DNA from: Escherichia phage A51.2 | Direction: 5' to 3' (one strand) | DNA: 64,000 bases | Sequence record: ON286973 | In this document: piece by piece, positions 40,223 through 54,432 of the stretch | Layout: every line of letters starts with the position of its first letter | Numbering within the stretch: the first letter of the stretch is position 1 | Notes under the pieces: model-generated | What the model saw: only the letters and a program-made list of their open reading frames with translations | The model's database searches: none | What the model was told of the DNA's origin: nothing | Made by a program: the position numbers and the translations under genes

Positions 40223-41588
40223 TAAGTTCTTCTCTTTTCTTTTACCGAGTAATTCGGGTTTTCTGTTCTCTTCGGTTTGAAGGGGTATAGAGATACACCT
40301 GAGTGAACAGGGTGAACAACCGAACCATTAGCTATGGCATTAGCATGGCGAAGCGGACGGGTGACGAAAGAGGGGCCGGAGGACACCAGTCACTGCCATA
40401 TGATATATGGGTGATAACCTGAAGAGTCTGAATAAGTGTTTAAGTACCAGTCAGAGGAAAAGGTGAATGGTAGCCGAAGGGGGGAGGGGGGTTTCTTGTA
40501 TCTTTAATTTGTATATTATGTATACACTTGTAAACCAATCTAATCTGAATCTGTTTACCACACAAAGCGGATAGAGACAAATATTGCCTATTAAACTTGA
40601 ATTATTTATAGAAAATACCACAACACCCCTTAAGTCTTTGATTTTACACACAAATCCTACAGATATTCAACCTCCATATTTAACATACTTGTAACATATT
40701 CCATACTCTACCTGCCTGATCAATTTCCCCAACTACATTCTCATATTTCCCCTGTCTGTACTACCCTGCCCCACCGGGAGTCCCGTCATATCTGGCTTTC
40801 CAGCAAATATCACACCCACAAATATCATGCCTGAAGAGGGTTTCATCCCATAATACCTGCCTTGCCTGAAGAGCGCTTCATACACCACGTAAATTTTTTA
40901 ATTGACCTCCCCTGCCCCGCCGGAGAGGTTGGCTTTTCCCACACAGACCTGGAGAGTCAGCCAGAAATATCTGAATAGGCCCAGTTCTACCACGATTTTG
41001 ACCTGACCTACAGGAGCGCTGCCAGGCGGACGAAATGGGAATACTTCTCATTCTTATAACAATTCTCAAATATCGAGGCAGTGAGGCAAATTAATAGGCC
41101 AGGCCGTTCACACAGTGGCACAACATTTGCAACCTATCTTGTGGGGTGAATGAGAATACCTATCATTGTGAGAACCATTATCATTACGGGCAATTTAACA
41201 TAATACCCATTATGCGCACCACTGGCGATCCATACAGGGATTGATAACACGAGTTACAGTTTACGCATATAACAATCATATTTCTTACTATTTGTGTGGG
41301 ATATAGTTAGCAGCCGATAGATTAGATATTGACCTGTGGACTTCCAACCGTCTAGACGTCTAAGCGCCCACACAACAAGGCTTATACATACATTACTGAA
41401 TGTAAACAGGGCCGCAAAAATGCTACCATACCAGTTTGTAAATTTTTCATGCAGCACTTGACAAAGAGGAGGAAAACTTGTCTGACACAATGTCACACAA
41501 TATGACACAATAACGGCTGTTACCATTCCATATCTCACTGTTTACGCATAGACTGTTTACGCCTGGATAGTTTACACAGATATGATAA

Positions 41589-41885
41589 GCCATGCCATTC
41601 GTTTGCATGAAAACAATTAACAAGATAACAATCGACAAGTTAATAATCTTTCGCTGGCTATGCCAGGTGACTAGGTCACCCCTTCGGGCGTTCCTATGAC
41701 ATAATATAAAAGCAGGGCAACTATTAGCAGATCTATAGTTGCCTTGCTTGTTATGTCATGATTAACTAAATACAAGGCAACTATGATCTGATTAATAGTT
41801 TGCAGACAAACTATCACGGGGGTGATGGTTACTGCTTTTATATTATGTCGCGACTCCGTCGCGCCATGCCATTCGTTTGCATAGT
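41589..41885. repeat. Composite repeat: 20-bp direct repeats GCCATGCCATTCGTTTGCAT (41589 and 41865) flanking nested inverted repeats (CATAATATAAAAGCAG/CTGCTTTTATATTATG; GGCAACTAT/ATAGTTGCC; GGTGAC-TAG-GTCACC; CGCGAC/GTCGCG)
   Basis: Read directly. Confidence 0.7.
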
Positions 41886-42494
41886 TGCCTTATTGTTATG
41901 AATAAAACAATTGCATTGTTAATGATTTCTTATCTTTCTATTAGTCATCTAATGATTTCAGTCAGGATAGTAATGTACAGTAAACATTAGACGACTAAAG
42001 ATTTCTCTGTTTATGATAACCTATCGTGACAATTTCGGACTGTTTACGAAAAATGTTGACACCTGAGCTGATTTATGTTATGCAGTTTACACGAATAATT
42101 ATTTTATACAGGTATTGACTATTCTGTTATTCTATGGTTGGAATAAATACTTAGCAGACTATAGAATGGTGAGCGTACGTAAATTCTGAGATCTGGCGGC
42201 TATAGTTATACTCGATTTTTCACGTAGAACGCGCTTTTGTGGTTATGTAAGTGTATGACTTATAAGAATTTTTATTTGTTGACAAGATATTGAAGATGTG
42301 CATCAGGTTAAAATTTGTGCAATAGCGGCATTACGTGCAATTTTGAGGGAGAAAACGGGTAAAAATGGCCCTGCTACCACACAATGAAAAATTATGCAAT
42401 AGTTATTTTATATGTATGTTTGTACAGTGTGTGGGATTGATGGCTAGTCAATTATTCCACTTGCCAGGCTGGGCCGTTTGTGGTAGGGGGAAGA

Positions 42495-43434: not shown

Positions 43435-43707
43435 TTACTTATGGCGGCAGAATTCAAGCGTTTTTAATTGATAATCTTCCTCAGCCTGGAGTACTACCGC
43501 CTCGATCATTTCGTTGGCATTGTTAAAGCCATAACCTTTAGCGAACTCATCCGCGCCACCTTCGTGATCATGTTCTGCGTTCATCGCTTCCACAAAATGG
43601 AATTCCAAATTGTTGAGGTAGGGGCTTGATGTTCCGTCCTCTTTTTCGATGAGATCCCAAATAGCATTAAAACGTGATTCGACTTCTTGATTAATCCAGC
43701 TTGACAT
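43435..43707 (-). CDS. Hypothetical acidic protein
   Basis: ORF. Confidence 0.4.
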   Translation of the reverse strand: MSSWINQEVESRFNAIWDLIEKEDGTSSPYLNNLEFHFVEAMNAEHDHEGGADEFAKGYGFNNANEMIEAVVLQAEEDYQLKTLEFCRHK

Positions 43708-43928
43708 AGTGTTTTCCTCTCTCCTGGTTGTTGTGTGGGCACCTTTGCCCCTTCAAGATAAATGTTACCTCACCCCCATGGCAGATGTCAACGGTTTTTA
43801 TAGTTCTTATATGACAGGCAGGCCCGGTGATTGTCTCCCCCCTGTTCCCAAGTGCCGCCCGTTTAATAAGAATAACAAAAGGGGCCGAACAAGTCAACCC
43901 CAAAATCAGTACCAAAAACACTTTTTAT

Positions 43929-45286: not shown

Positions 45287-45361
45287 TTCTACCCTCATTA
45301 ATGGCGGGAAGTATTCCCGCGCTATGTAGTACACTTTACCAGATTGTTGACTGTTGTCAAA

Positions 45362-47384: not shown

Positions 47385-47432
47385 AATTTACTTTATCGAT
47401 GGCCCTGAAGTCAAGGCCATCTAAAAATAAAT
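47385..47432 (-). promoter_or_regulatory. Conserved roughly 44-bp intergenic element TTTACTTTATCGATGGCCCTGAAGTCAAGGCCATCTAAAAATAA (copy 1 of 3); hairpin GATGGCC/GGCCATC; promoter-like on the minus strand
   Basis: Read directly; near-identical copies at 51125-51169 and 51746-51792. Confidence 0.55.
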
Positions 47433-47433
47433 T

Positions 47434-47634
47434 TTACAGGCCTACAATCTCTTTGATTCGTTTAACTGCTGCCTCAGCGCCTTGGGGGTAGAAATTATGA
47501 TAACCAATCACGCGAGTGATACTAATCGCCGTTTGATGATCTTCATAGTCGCCCTTGAAGATTTCTTGACCGTCAATCAGCACGGCAATTTTTTCTTCTT
47601 TTTTGAAGTTAATAACGCGGATATTGTTGCTCAT
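47434..47634 (-). CDS. Hypothetical protein
   Basis: ORF. Confidence 0.4.
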   Translation of the reverse strand: MSNNIRVINFKKEEKIAVLIDGQEIFKGDYEDHQTAISITRVIGYHNFYPQGAEAAVKRIKEIVGL

Positions 47635-49645: not shown

Positions 49646-49719
49646 GATATTTTCTCCTATTTTCTTTGTTAGTGGCGGGAAAACTTCCCGCCTGTGTGTT
49701 TAAGTATACTTATTGAGAT

Positions 49720-50761: not shown

Positions 50762-50836
50762 GTACTTTCTCCTTTCATTGTATTGATAAACTATCTTTAT
50801 AGATGGCCCTGCTACCAGGACCACCGAAAAAACAGC

Positions 50837-51082
50837 TTATTTGACGATACCGACAAAACAGATCCCGCCTTCCCCTATATAGGCAATATCGGTAATTTTA
50901 TAATTTGTCAAGATCCGCGTGTTCAGATCATTAATAAAATCGGTCATCGCGTTGGTGTAGTTGTCTTCCGTGTCTAAGGCATAATCCCAGGTGTAAACCT
51001 TTTTACGTCCGAAGCCTTTTACCATGATACGGGCGCTTTTGGTGTTGGTAGGGGCATAATATTTGGTGATTAGTGCTGCCAT
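50837..51082 (-). CDS. Hypothetical protein
   Basis: ORF. Confidence 0.4.
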   Translation of the reverse strand: MAALITKYYAPTNTKSARIMVKGFGRKKVYTWDYALDTEDNYTNAMTDFINDLNTRILTNYKITDIAYIGEGGICFVGIVK

Positions 51083-51124
51083 GGTTTTAACTCCTCTGAA
51101 TTAGTTCAGTGTTAACAGTATAAA

Positions 51125-51169
51125 GTTTACTTTATTGATGGCCCTGGAGTCAAGGCCATCTAAAAATAA
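51125..51169 (-). promoter_or_regulatory. Conserved roughly 44-bp intergenic element (copy 2 of 3)
   Basis: Read directly. Confidence 0.55.
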
Positions 51170-51171
51170 TC

Positions 51172-51513
51172 TTACTCGTTTTCTTCCAGCTCCGCAAGCT
51201 CTTCTTTTGCTTCTTCTAACTCTGTCTGTAGTTCCTGGTATTCTTCATCTTCCTCAATATCCAGGCTGTCGATGTAGTCGCTAAATCCGCAGCGGTAAGC
51301 GATAGGATCTAGCTCCTTGAGGATACGCGACGGAAGAAAAGAAATGTTTCCGATCATAATTTCGCCGTAGATCTCGTCTAACCATTCATCATAGTTTTCG
51401 TCGTACTTGTCCTCGTCGATTTCAAAGTTATCGATCTTGTTCTCAAGGTCTGCGATCTGTTTTTTCAGCGCGGCGATCTGCATAGCTTTTTCTGCGGCGG
51501 TCATAGTAGTCAT
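51172..51513 (-). CDS. Acidic coiled-coil protein
   Basis: ORF. Confidence 0.4.
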   Translation of the reverse strand: MTTMTAAEKAMQIAALKKQIADLENKIDNFEIDEDKYDENYDEWLDEIYGEIMIGNISFLPSRILKELDPIAYRCGFSDYIDSLDIEEDEEYQELQTELEEAKEELAELEENE

Positions 51514-51745: not shown

Positions 51746-51792
51746 AGTTTACTTTATTGATGGCCCTGAAGTCAAGGCCATCTAAAAATAAA
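51746..51792 (-). promoter_or_regulatory. Conserved roughly 44-bp intergenic element (copy 3 of 3)
   Basis: Read directly. Confidence 0.55.
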
Positions 51793-51793
51793 C

Positions 51794-52198
51794 TTAGTAA
51801 GTTTTCAGTACTTTACCGTCCAACCTGTCAAGCTGGATCTCGATAGCTGCAGAAAACCTATTGTAAACCACATCGCCCATAGAATCCAACCAGTCTATGA
51901 TATTATACACTTGCTCTTTGTTCTTGCAGGTCCGGATCCGTTTCATGATGTAAGCCGGATCAATATTGGTACTCTCGTTGGTGTTCCCCTGTACCTGGTT
52001 TGCCGTATTAGTTACATCTTTAATGGCCTTTACCACCACCTGGAATGGCTTTAAGGTGCCTTTTGCGTTCATCTCACGCGCTTTTGCGGCGCGGTTGTTA
52101 TATGTTACACAACGGCGGCAAATGTTGATCAAATGCATGTCAATAATTTTTTCATCGTTTGCCAACTCGTTCATGATGCGGCGTACGTTCTTATTCAT
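51794..52198 (-). CDS. Hypothetical protein
   Basis: ORF. Confidence 0.4.
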   Translation of the reverse strand: MNKNVRRIMNELANDEKIIDMHLINICRRCVTYNNRAAKAREMNAKGTLKPFQVVVKAIKDVTNTANQVQGNTNESTNIDPAYIMKRIRTCKNKEQVYNIIDWLDSMGDVVYNRFSAAIEIQLDRLDGKVLKTY

Positions 52199-52286
52199 GA
52201 TCTTTTTCCTTTGTGCTGGCGGGAAACATTCCCGCCTTTTGTGTCTAGTTTACTTGAATTTTGCAGCGTGTCAATAATTTTTTTTT

Positions 52287-52947: not shown

Positions 52948-53623
52948 AAATTTATCCTCTTTACTGGTTAGTGCGGTGTTGTTCACCTTGTAGGGTAATA
53001 ATACCATGATTAACCTTGTTGTCAACGACTATTTTAAATTATTTTTATGATAGAATCCACCTGCCGCCGCCCTGCCAGGTTAACCATCATTTTTTCGTAC
53101 TCTTCTTTATGTTCCAACGCTCCCGCCATGGCCTTTTCAACCAGGGCGATAGCCTCAGCGTCATTAATAGCTACATTTTCCAGGCTGGCCCCGCCAGGTT
53201 GCAGCGGTTAGCGCATCAGGTTAGAAAAATTTTTTGAAAAGTGTTGACAGCGGCCCCGCCAGGTGGCACAATATACCTATCGAAAGGACGGCAGGCACCG
53301 GTGACGGGGGAGACAACCACCGGGGATGGGCGCTGCATAAAATGAGAACGGTTATCATTATCATTTAAAAATTTATGCAAAAAATCCTTGCTTTCTTTGT
53401 CCTGTGTGATACTATAATAACAAGCCGGGGCAACAGGGGCCGGGAGACAATCACCGGGCCTGCCCGTTATTCTGCAAACGAGAATGATTATCATTCAAAA
53501 TTCTAAATGAGAACTCCTCGCATTTAATAAATTTAATTAGCACGCTAATTACCCTCCGTAACAATTTCCTATAAAACAGTATCCCATAAAATATTCCCGT
53601 ATAGAAATTTTAAAAATCCATTT

Positions 53624-53793
53624 CTGAAAACGAAAAATCGATTTCGTCCCCAAAAATTTTAGGCCAAGAGCCGGAGCGATTTCCAGAAAATCCGATTCAG
53701 AAAACGAAAAACAGATCGAGTACTGAGAAATTTATCGAGAAAAATTTTCAGAAAATTCAATCTTTGAAACGAAAAACAGATCGAGTACCTGGA
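53624..53793. repeat. Three tandem repeat units of about 70 bp, each containing GAAAACGAAAAA(C/T)(A/C)GAT ... (starts near 53624, 53696, 53764)
   Basis: Read directly; lies in an ORF-free island. Confidence 0.65.
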
Positions 53794-54099
53794 AAGCTGC
53801 ACCGCAACTTCAAGATAGTGGTTGGATTATTGCTATAAAAGGTCAAGGGTAAGTGGAGGAAGTTCTAGTAGCGAGATGTAAGCATGTGCGGGAAATCTAT
53901 AATGGTGGTCTGGAATATGGTGCAAACGGTAGGATGAGTGATTCAGCTTGTCGCGCCTACTCTGAAAAATCCATTTTAGTTTTCGATCCATTTTCTGATT
54001 TTCTAAGGATTTTAAAATATCCTGGCAGGTAAAATATCAAAAGGAGGAAATCCATTTTAGAAATCCTCCTGATCTCTGGCAACCTGATAACTTAAAATA

Positions 54100-54432
54100 T
54101 CAGGCTCCCAGTGTGTTCTTTCCTTTGTACAACCTTAAGGGTATAGTTTTTGTAACAGTCCATCTCCCCAGCCCTTCCCAGTTCCAGTTGTAGGCATGGT
54201 ACCCGGTTACGCATGCACTGCTAGAGTGGTCATAGGCATAAGAGAACGCTATACGCACCAAATGGAACCAGTCTTTCCACGGTTGTGGTCCGTAAGCTTT
54301 TCTCCAACACCGACACAAACTAAATGTCTCAAGAATAGGCAGGATAACAAATCCATACACCGCCACCAGAATAGCCAGCGCAATGATTGTCAGGAATACA
54401 TACCCTGCAGTTGAAACGATGATCTCTGTCAT
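54100..54432 (-). CDS. Membrane protein
   Basis: N-terminal transmembrane segment IVSTAGYVFLTIIALAILVAVYGFVILPIL. Confidence 0.4.
   Translation of the reverse strand: MTEIIVSTAGYVFLTIIALAILVAVYGFVILPILETFSLCRCWRKAYGPQPWKDWFHLVRIAFSYAYDHSSSACVTGYHAYNWNWEGLGRWTVTKTIPLRLYKGKNTLGA

What the first reader, a model, noticed from the sequence alone, without database searches (positions are those of the whole stretch)
43812..43848. About 35-bp element CAGGCCCGGTGATTGTCTCCC...CCTGTT repeated in inverted orientation 9.6 kb away
The element at 43812-43848 (plus orientation) recurs as its reverse complement at about 53435-53470, with a degenerate copy at about 53280-53320. Dispersed inverted copies of a GC-rich element in non-coding DNA could be recombination or nicking sites, or binding sites for a phage regulator. 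The short ORFs overlapping them (ITGRPGDCLP-type translations) look like artefacts of the repeat.
Basis: seen in the sequence. Interest (0 to 1): 0.45.

Follow-up and report, generated by a model that had tools for sequence, protein, structure and literature searches.

The report
Promoter-proximal hairpin element beside Fur operators
The repeated 29–35 bp element is real: it is the conserved core of a non-coding, probably transcribed hairpin module that sits just downstream of host-type promoters at two divergent sites in rV5-like phages, next to binding sites for the host iron regulator Fur, and its function is still unknown.

Summary
The window comes from an rV5-like coliphage (Vequintavirus). 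A sequence profile finds exactly three copies of the core GGGAGACAAYCACCGG-N3-TGCC: 43811-43839 (-), 53442-53470 (+) and a degenerate copy at 53308-53334 (+).

The element is ancient. Both loci, 8-10.5 kb apart and always pointing away from each other, recur in at least seven genera of Vequintavirinae and Stephanstirmvirinae.

Most copies start 26-29 nt after a sigma70-like -10 hexamer. The G-rich 5' flank varies but stays complementary to the conserved 3' arm, with one clearly covarying base pair. The inverted orientation therefore most likely reflects the direction of transcription, not recombination.

All "B" copies and copy A are followed, at a fixed 35-38 nt, by palindromes that match the Fur box. 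Their best E. coli match is the ryhB promoter operator. Iteron-like repeats lie further downstream.

Best reading (about 0.5): a 5'-proximal structured RNA element of non-coding or leader transcripts. A double-stranded DNA operator remains a serious rival. No support was found for nick or recombination sites. There is no Rfam family and no description in the searchable literature. Function is inferred, not shown.

The parts
43811..43839 (-). Copy C: conserved 29-nt core GGGAGACAATCACCGGGCCTGCCTGTCAT
   Evidence: Profile hit E=1.6e-8; exact 17-mer match; repeat pair I2.
43814..43862 (-). Copy C: predicted hairpin. The 5' arm ACGGGCGGC pairs with the 3' arm GCC-U-GCCUGU, and the core lies in the apical part and 3' arm
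   Evidence: MFE -18.3 to -24.1 kcal/mol; z = -3.0 against shuffles for the 76-nt window. Homologues rV5 and L006 fold the same way at -25.7 and -23.9.
43869..43897 (-). Promoter-like TTGACT-17-TATTCT. It overlaps the terminator-like hairpin 43881-43901 of the upstream gene, and its -10 ends 6 nt before the hairpin
   Evidence: Promoter and terminator scan. The same arrangement is seen in rV5, A5-4, Certrevirus and Phapecoctavirus C-type loci.
43762..43791 (-). Second, stronger promoter-like site TTGACA-18-TAACAT between copy C and the next gene (ATG at 43707). The copy-C promoter is therefore not needed to express that gene
   Evidence: In the rV5 record the homologous site is annotated as promoter P168.
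53442..53470 (+). Copy B: conserved core GGGAGACAATCACCGGGCCTGCCCGTTAT
   Evidence: Profile hit E=7e-9.
53428..53465 (+). Copy B: predicted hairpin (GGGCA/UGCCC outer helix, CCGG/CCGG inner helix, loop GAGACAAUCA)
   Evidence: MFE structure. The further AUAAC/GUUAU pairing (53417-53421 with 53466-53470) probably lies upstream of the transcription start and is uncertain.
53388..53415 (+). Promoter-like TTGCTT-16-TACTAT with an extended -10 (TGaTACTAT). It is positionally homologous to the promoters upstream of copy B in other genera
   Evidence: Sequence read; cross-genus comparison.
53308..53334 (+). Copy A: degenerate core GGGAGACAACCACCGGGGATGGGCGCT
   Evidence: Profile hit E=5e-5; 1 mismatch in the 17-mer.
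53291..53336 (+). Copy A: predicted hairpin. The outer helix GCAGGC/GC(G)CUGC has a different sequence from copies B and C but is still complementary
   Evidence: MFE -21.7 kcal/mol, z = -1.8.
53244..53272 (+). Promoter-like TTGACA-17-CACAAT (10 of 12, TG before the -10) upstream of copy A
53344..53362 (+). Fur-box-like site GAGAACGGTTATCATTATC, 35 nt after the start of core A
   Evidence: It is the only match in the 64 kb to GATAATGATNATCATTATC at up to 3 mismatches (0.05 expected). Spacing.
53477..53495 (+). Fur-box-like palindrome AACGAGAATGATTATCATT, 37 nt after the start of core B. A weaker repeat AAATGAGAAC follows at about 53506
   Evidence: Its best E. coli match, in 5415 of 5426 genomes, is the operator just upstream of ryhB.
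53605..53795 (+). Three iteron-like repeats (GAAAACGAAAAACAGATCGAGTAC units) downstream of copies A and B
   Evidence: Repeat family D2. The same promoter, element, Fur-box, repeat order is seen in Certre-, Mydo-, Seuna-, Avuna-, Henunavirus and Phapecoctavirus.

Best explanation
Each copy is the conserved core of a short promoter-proximal module read by the host sigma70 RNA polymerase.

Anatomy. Transcription would start about 7 nt after the -10 hexamer, at roughly 43862 (-), 53422 (+) and 53279 (+). The first 50-55 nt would fold into an imperfect G+C-rich hairpin. Its 5' arm is free to vary. Its apical loop (GGAGACAAUCA) and 3' arm (CACCGG-N3-UGCC) are held constant.

Why the copies are inverted. 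The copy at 43.8 kb heads a leftward transcript into early genes. The two copies at 53.3-53.4 kb head rightward, gene-less transcripts into a conserved non-coding region holding Fur operators and iteron-like repeats.

Likely role. I infer that the constant loop and 3' arm form a recognition surface for a conserved protein or for the polymerase itself. It would act at the 5' end of these leader or non-coding RNAs, in the manner of nut/put-type elements or a 5' stabilising and recognition hairpin. Output at the B and A loci would be coupled to host Fur bound 35-38 nt downstream.

Shown versus inferred. Shown: the repeat, its conservation, its fixed spacing to promoter-like sites and Fur boxes, and its non-coding status. 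Inferred: that it is transcribed, that the RNA rather than the DNA is the active form, and what it does.
For: 1. There are three significant copies and no others in 64 kb. BLAST finds 2 detectable places per Vequintavirus genome across 162 matching records.

2. Conservation is deep. B-type copies occur in Vequinta-, Certre-, Mydo-, Seuna-, Henuna-, Avunavirus and Phapecoctavirus. C-type copies lie 8-10.5 kb away and divergent in Vequintavirus, Certrevirus, Phapecoctavirus, phage A5-4 and two metagenome contigs.

3. In 18 of 26 copies the best sigma70-like match (9 of 12 or better) ends 26-29 nt before the core, so the hairpin starts about 6 nt after the -10. The hexamers are kept while the spacer sequences differ.

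4. The copy-C promoter is followed by a second, stronger promoter for the gene, and copies A and B have no co-directional gene downstream. This suggests the RNA or its transcription is the product.

5. The hairpin has moderate support. On the sequence-only MAFFT alignment the outer helix is 86% paired, against 27-56% when the partner is slid. One pair switches G-C (7), A-U (6) and G-U (2). On a hand-made structural alignment the two helices are 93% and 89% paired, with 20 G-U cells against 6 A.C cells. Paralogue A keeps a complementary outer helix with a different sequence.

6. The palindromes downstream behave as DNA operators, not RNA. They match the ryhB Fur operator and occur without the hairpin in more than 120 unrelated viral contigs.
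Against: No transcript data exist for any of these phages in the searchable literature.

MAFFT plus RNAalifold finds no consensus fold.

Covariation is limited to essentially one pair. The shuffle control is only weakly exceeded: 22 of 500 shuffles reach the covariation score.

My structural alignment was built to fit the fold, so it leans towards it.

The sense strand is only slightly more stable than the antisense strand: mean -1.3 kcal/mol, more stable in 15 of 23. Fold z-scores are modest: -0.9, -1.8 and -3.0.

Phapecoctavirus and A5-4 C-type copies fold in a different register.

In the Vequintavirus B copy, part of the 5' arm probably lies upstream of the transcription start.

There is no terminator after the hairpin, so the 3' end of any RNA is unknown.
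Confidence: 0.5

Rival explanations
1. The core is a double-stranded DNA operator. The non-palindromic 29-bp core at about +20 to +48 would bind a phage or host protein that controls promoter escape or elongation, possibly together with Fur. The complementarity of the flank would be secondary.
For: The sequence itself is strongly conserved rather than just the pairing. The core keeps fixed spacing to the -10 and to the Fur box. Structural evidence for an RNA is only moderate, and the strand preference is weak.
Against: The 5' arms differ between genera and between paralogues yet remain complementary to the 3' arm. Examples are AUAGCGGG/CCCGCUAU, AUGGCG/CGUCAU, ACGGCAGGC/GCCUGCC and GCAGGC/GCGCUGC. 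No candidate binding protein is encoded next to the element: the small neighbouring ORFs are not homologous between genera.
Confidence: 0.25
2. The element is part of a replication origin. The hairpins would be signals on unwound or single-stranded DNA, or the 5' ends of primer or activating transcripts, that start DNA synthesis outward from two divergent sites. Known parallels are the T7 and T4 origin promoters and the RSF1010 ssiA/ssiB signals.
For: Tandem promoters read into a conserved gene-free region holding AT-rich tracts and three iteron-like repeats with GATC sites. The hairpins are about equally stable on both strands. The origin of rV5 is undefined (PMC3606486). Fur-type palindromes sit beside DnaA boxes in some unrelated viral contigs.
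Against: Copy C is not next to iterons in Vequintavirus. No initiator protein or experimental origin mapping is available. The promoter association holds for all copies, which an ssDNA signal does not need.
Confidence: 0.1
3. The functional transcript is on the opposite strand. A Fur-repressed promoter embedded in the palindrome (TTGAAT-N18-CAGAAT, with the Fur box in the spacer as at ryhB) would make an iron-responsive RNA. That RNA would carry CCGGUGAUUGUCUCC and could pair with the sense RNAs of all three copies.
For: The antisense promoter-like site, with the Fur box in its spacer, is present in 9 of 15 B-type loci. This geometry is the classical one for Fur repression. The antisense strand folds almost as well as the sense strand.
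Against: The match is only 8 of 12, and promoter-like matches are expected around any Fur box because the hexamers resemble a -10. It is absent in phiWec181, BIS47, L119 and L058. Vequintavirus and Phapecoctavirus C copies have no Fur box. The predicted start falls inside the 3' arm, so the hairpin could not form.
Confidence: 0.08
4. The copies are recombination, inversion or nick sites.
For: Inverted copies flank a 9.6-kb segment.
Against: In every genome checked the two loci are divergent and the intervening genes keep the same strand as the flanks. A third, tandem copy exists. There are no target-site duplications or recombinase-type dyad sites. The surrounding unique sequence is conserved.
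Confidence: 0.03

Closest known systems
Lambda nutL/nutR and HK022 putL/putR (promoter-proximal antitermination RNA elements; from established knowledge, not tested here)
   Same: These are short conserved elements, transcribed into hairpins, placed shortly after promoters of two divergent early transcription paths, so the DNA copies are inverted. Here too the loop and one arm are conserved while the rest varies. The copy-C transcript would enter an early region full of intrinsic terminators.
   Different: No boxA or boxB sequence is visible. No N or Nus link is known. Copies A and B have no co-directional genes to antiterminate into. The put-type two-hairpin shape was not seen. Activity is untested.
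Fur-repressed sRNAs RyhB (E. coli) and the tandem PrrF1/PrrF2 (Pseudomonas)
   Same: The elements are physically linked to high-quality Fur boxes, and the phage box is 21 of 23 identical to the ryhB operator. There are tandem paralogous copies, and the promoters are orphan with no ORF.
   Different: The Fur box lies about 55-75 nt downstream of the putative start instead of over the promoter. There is no Rho-independent terminator. There is no Rfam RyhB or PrrF match.
Origin-associated promoters and primer transcripts (T7 phi1.1A/B, T4 oriF/oriG, ColE1 RNA II) and the RSF1010 ssiA/ssiB hairpins
   Same: Tandem promoters are directed into an AT-rich, repeat-bearing non-coding region, and hairpin-forming signals lie in opposite orientations.
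   Different: No origin has been mapped in rV5-like phages. Copy C is not beside iterons. There is no sequence similarity.
PhiTE pseudo-ToxI non-coding RNA (a Certrevirus; PMC3475682)
   Same: It is a non-coding RNA locus in an rV5-like phage. A weak resemblance exists between GGUGAUU(U)G in ToxI and the reverse strand of the core.
   Different: [quoted passage not shown] It consists of 36-nt tandem repeats closely matching ToxI. The resemblance is on the strand opposite to the promoters found here.

Membership tests
Any Rfam RNA family (release 15) | Covariance-model score at or near the family's gathering threshold | tested here: not met
   There were no hits at gathering threshold in the whole window. 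At E up to 10 on 53000-54100, and E up to 5 on Certrevirus and Phapecoctavirus homologues, only chance-level hits to unrelated families appeared.
Lambda-type nut site | boxA (CGCTCTTA-like) followed by a boxB hairpin with a GAAAA-type pentaloop | tested here: not met
   Reading searches shows no boxA-like sequence within 100 nt of any copy. The loop is GAGACAAUCA. The consensus sequences are recalled from established knowledge.
HK022 put-type polymerase-binding RNA | Cis-acting terminator read-through that depends on the RNA fold and the beta-prime zinc-binding domain | not testable with these tools
   This needs in vivo or in vitro transcription assays.
Fur box (for the flanking palindromes, not the element itself) | Match to the 19-bp consensus GATAATGATAATCATTATC or the 7-1-7 core TGATAATnATTATCA | tested here: met
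   53344-53362 matches 16 of 19, and it is the only such site in 64 kb (0.05 expected). 53479-53493 has 2 mismatches to TGAGAATNATTCTCA. The best E. coli match is the operator immediately upstream of RyhB. The same GAGAATGATTCTC string appears in an Enterococcus faecalis Fur-regulon paper (the paper was found but not read).
Fur box (for the flanking palindromes) | Actual binding by Fur-Fe2+ | not testable with these tools
   This needs EMSA, footprinting or ChIP.
Intrinsic terminator | G+C-rich hairpin immediately followed by a run of T | tested here: not met
   None of the three hairpins is reported by the terminator scan on either strand. The tails are UUAUUCUGC, CAUAUAAG and AUAAAAUG.
Site-specific inversion or recombination sites | The segment between inverted sites is found in both orientations among related genomes, with dyad-symmetric core sites | tested here: not met
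   The divergent arrangement is the same in Vequintavirus, Certrevirus, Phapecoctavirus and two metagenome contigs. The core is not dyad-symmetric.
Protein-coding sequence | A conserved ORF spanning the element in relatives | tested here: not met
   ORFs over the copies exist in the window and are annotated in some Vequintavirus records. The homologous regions of six other genera carry no CDS over the element.
Structured RNA (generic) | Base pairs maintained by compensatory change | tested here: inconclusive
   One pair covaries (G-C 7, A-U 6, G-U 2, with 5 cells unpaired). The helix is 86% paired against 27-56% when slid. Shuffles reach the covariation score 22 times in 500. RNAalifold finds no consensus.

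The most novel reading that the evidence does not exclude
rV5-like and phAPEC8-like virulent phages may carry a conserved non-coding control hub. In it a family of sibling structured RNAs (the element, plus the longer 'RNA-1' of other genera) would be transcribed divergently from host promoters. Host Fur would gate them through operators placed at a fixed distance. Host iron status would thereby be coupled to phage early transcription or to firing of an adjacent iteron-type origin.
Probability: 0.2. Interest if true: 0.8.

Novelty: new variant of a known kind. Interest (0 to 1): 0.55.

Why it matters
rV5-like and phAPEC8-like phages are widely used in therapy and biocontrol cocktails, yet their origin of replication and early regulation are undefined.

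A conserved, unannotated promoter-proximal element with three copies per genome is a concrete handle on that regulation. So are the operators for the host iron regulator wired next to it.

It would also show that strictly virulent phages read host iron status. Records that annotate 'hypothetical proteins' across these sites are probably mis-annotated.

Tried and rejected
Rfam found nothing at gathering or permissive thresholds. There are no tRNA or tmRNA genes in the window.

MAFFT plus RNAalifold on 20 homologues gave no useful consensus fold. I therefore used a hand alignment and then a restricted test on the unbiased alignment.

Comparing sense and antisense folding energies gave only a weak strand signal.

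A trans-target search for the loop complement in the window found nothing beyond the copies themselves: 6 matches against 5.4 expected.

The pseudo-ToxI idea was rejected after reading PMC3475682.

Small ORFs next to the B locus in other genera were considered as candidate regulators. They are not homologous to one another, and my mapped Gotham CDS coordinates did not translate in the window.

Literature searches for rV5 or Vequintavirus origins, sRNAs and transcriptomes returned nothing relevant.

An IMG/VR scan for the core found only one extra locus.

By eye only, I considered and dropped several resemblances as inconsistent across genera: the RyhB 5' hairpin, the 16S rRNA 3' end, CsrA and Hfq motifs, G-quadruplexes, a sigma70 pause element (GACAAT) and a Pho box.

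Full report
**What the window is.** BLAST of both loci against phage records gives 97-99.8% identity to rV5-like coliphages (Vequintavirus). Examples are phiWec191, Gotham and ECP2303. Genes run on the + strand to about 40 kb. From about 42 kb to 64 kb they run on the - strand as many short early-type genes, punctuated by promoter-like and terminator-like sites.

- The + strand at 43811-43839 is the reverse complement of 53442-53470 (29 nt, 93%). A weaker copy lies at 53306-53324.
- The 17-mer core occurs three times at up to 3 mismatches, against 0.12 expected.
- A sequence-only profile of 21 homologues scores the three copies at E = 7e-9, 1.6e-8 and 5e-5. Nothing else scores below E of about 4.
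- BLAST with a 41-nt query finds two detectable places per Vequintavirus genome.
- I call the copies C (43.8 kb, sense on the - strand), A (53.31 kb, +) and B (53.44 kb, +).

**Conservation.** The B locus lies in a gene-free region of roughly 800-960 nt, and this region is conserved well beyond the genus. The same order is present in Certrevirus (KaOmega, CR8, DU_PP_IV), Mydovirus (BIS47), Seunavirus (SSE121), Henunavirus (Hena1), Avunavirus (Av-05) and Phapecoctavirus (phiWec181, Mt1B1_P17). It is also present in several metagenome contigs. That order is promoter, element, palindromes, then iteron-like repeats.

The C locus is conserved too. It appears in rV5, phage A5-4, Certrevirus (F5M2A, POP18), Phapecoctavirus (Mt1B1_P17, ZCKP1) and contigs L119 and L142.

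In every case the two loci are 8-10.5 kb apart and point away from each other.

**Anatomy around each copy.** In 18 of 26 copies the best sigma70-like match within 110 nt upstream ends 26-29 nt before the core. The G-rich flank begins 6 nt after the -10.
- Copy A follows TTGACA-17-CACAAT, and copy C follows TTGACT-17-TATTCT.
- Copy B follows TTGCTT-16-TACTAT with a TGn extension.
- The hexamers persist between genera while the spacers differ.
- At the C locus this promoter overlaps the terminator-like hairpin of the preceding gene. It is itself followed by a second, stronger promoter that serves the next gene.
- Copies A and B face away from all neighbouring genes.

The promoters in front of the element therefore look like orphan promoters, whose product would be the short RNA or the act of transcription.

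**Is it a hairpin?** Single-sequence folds of most homologues give the same shape. An outer helix joins the variable 5' flank to the conserved ...UGCC(C/U)G(Y)(Y)AU arm. An inner CCGG/CCGG or CGG/CCG helix closes a loop that ends in GAGACAAUCA.

The 5' arms differ yet stay complementary. Examples are AUAGCGGG/CCCGCUAU, AUGGCG/CGUCAU, ACGGCAGGC/GCCUGCC and, in paralogue A, GCAGGC/GC(G)CUGC.
- On the unbiased MAFFT alignment the six outer pairs are 86% paired, against 27-56% when the partner is slid. One pair alternates G-C (7), A-U (6) and G-U (2), with 5 unpaired cells.
- On my hand alignment the two helices are 93% and 89% paired, with 20 G-U cells against 6 A.C cells.

The caveats are real.
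- RNAalifold alone finds no consensus.
- The shuffle control is only weakly exceeded (22 of 500).
- The hand alignment is fitted to the fold.
- The sense strand is only 1.3 kcal/mol more stable on average.
- Phapecoctavirus-type C copies use another register.
- In Vequintavirus copy B, the AUAAC arm probably precedes the transcription start.

I rate the hairpin as moderately supported. The strand assignment rests mainly on the promoters.

**The neighbours are Fur operators.** All 15 B-type copies examined and copy A are followed, 35-38 nt after the core start, by a 7-1-7 palindrome of the type TGAGAATnATT(C/A)TCA. Certrevirus C copies have one at +67.
- In the window, 53344-53362 matches the 19-bp Fur consensus at 16 of 19. 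It is the only such site in 64 kb.
- A 30-nt query built on the palindrome consensus of relatives (it differs from the window's own 53473-53502 at four positions) hits 5415 of 5426 complete E. coli genomes at one intergenic site. That site is GCGAATGAGAATGATTATTATTG between yhhY and yhhX. It lies immediately upstream of the RNA that Rfam identifies as RyhB. That ryhB is directly Fur-repressed is established knowledge.
- The same palindrome occurs in more than 120 unrelated IMG/VR contigs. It often sits just after a promoter, in arrays, or beside DnaA boxes. It therefore acts as a DNA site independent of the hairpin.
- In Vequintavirus the palindrome is a better Fur consensus but a worse RNA hairpin, which argues the same way.

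**Mechanism.** The best-supported reading is a promoter-proximal, transcribed structured element. Its constant loop and 3' arm would be a recognition surface. Its inverted orientation simply follows two divergent transcription paths, as with nutL/nutR or putL/putR.

I cannot tell which of these it does:
- modifies elongation;
- stabilises or marks the RNA;
- acts in trans as a sibling sRNA;
- feeds an origin.

Its fixed coupling to Fur operators suggests that output at the B and A loci depends on host iron status.

A double-stranded DNA operator is the main rival. Origin-related and antisense-RNA readings follow. An antisense promoter-like site with the Fur box in its spacer exists in 9 of 15 loci, but it is weak. 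Recombination or nick sites have no support.

**Novelty.** There is no Rfam family. The rV5 genome paper only marks a 'non-coding' box and could not define the origin. No transcriptome or sRNA report was found. The element resembles known kinds of promoter-proximal phage elements but belongs to none that I could test.

Noticed in passing
It often sits at about +8 to +28 after a TTGACA-17-TGnTATAAT-type promoter followed by CGGCGCC. It also occurs in tandem arrays or next to DnaA boxes. Fur-type operators therefore seem widespread in phage genomes.
   Followed up: partly
L150 1501-1523 (E. coli K-12, yhhY-yhhX intergenic region): The best E. coli match to the phage palindrome, present in 5415 of 5426 genomes, is the operator directly upstream of ryhB. 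Rfam finds RyhB at L150 1558-1622.
   Followed up: yes
window 40700-42400, especially 41036-41183: A second large gene-poor region lies at the switch of gene orientation. It holds four more Fur-like boxes (for example GTGAGAACCATTATCATT) and repeated GTTTACGC and GACACAAT motifs. It could be another control or origin region.
   Followed up: no
window 53605-53795; L002 1350-1560; L008 1040-1250; L009 1030-1240; L012 1010-1220: Three iteron-like units of about 65-75 nt (AAAAATTTTTT tract, then GAAAAnCGATCGAGnAC with GATC) lie downstream of the Fur boxes. They are conserved in architecture across genera and are a candidate replication origin.
   Followed up: partly
L002 1013-1120, L005 1013-1118, L007 775-880, L008 712-820, L009 735-845, L012 660-765, L010 715-815: In genera other than Vequintavirus the first promoter drives a conserved region of about 100 nt, which I call RNA-1 (…CGCCACCCCACGGCG.AAAGGCGGGGCUAAC…GGAAGGUGGAUCGCCGG…). 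It has a consensus fold and one covarying pair, and no Rfam match. By eye (no alignment was run), its 3' part appears homologous to window copy A.
   Followed up: partly
L002 1129, L005 1118, L008 818, L009 840, L012 765, L142 4282/6833/7321: The direct repeat TGTAAAGAnnTGTAAAG (GTAAA-N5-GTAAA, which from memory is the CpxR-box pattern) sits just upstream of the -35 of the element's promoter in several genera. In L142 it also sits upstream of other early promoters. It is absent from the window.
   Followed up: partly
window 53466-53496 (- strand) and homologues: A promoter-like site TTGAAT-N18-CAGAAT on the antisense strand has the Fur box in its spacer. It is present in 9 of 15 B-type loci. 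It may be a Fur-repressed antisense promoter, or just a by-product of the Fur hexamers.
   Followed up: partly
window 47385-47435, 50789-50839, 51124-51174, 51746-51796; 45298-45320, 49660-49711, 52204-52255: Other repeated intergenic cassettes occur in the early region. They include a 51-nt family containing a GGCC...GGCC hairpin and a GGCGGGAAnnnTTCCCGCC terminator-like family followed by TTTAAGTATAC. They look like recurring terminator and promoter modules.
   Followed up: no
GenBank MG0656xx records: About 20 records named 'Campylobacter phage' (hosts listed as C. jejuni) are 97-99.8% identical to E. coli rV5-like phages over these loci. This suggests mislabelling or contamination in that data set.
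   Followed up: no
L001 1793-2080 (Gotham F10B_0202) and similar CDS in other Vequintavirus records: 'Hypothetical protein' CDSs are annotated across copies A and B on the strand opposite to the promoters. They are not conserved outside the genus and are probably annotation artefacts.
   Followed up: partly
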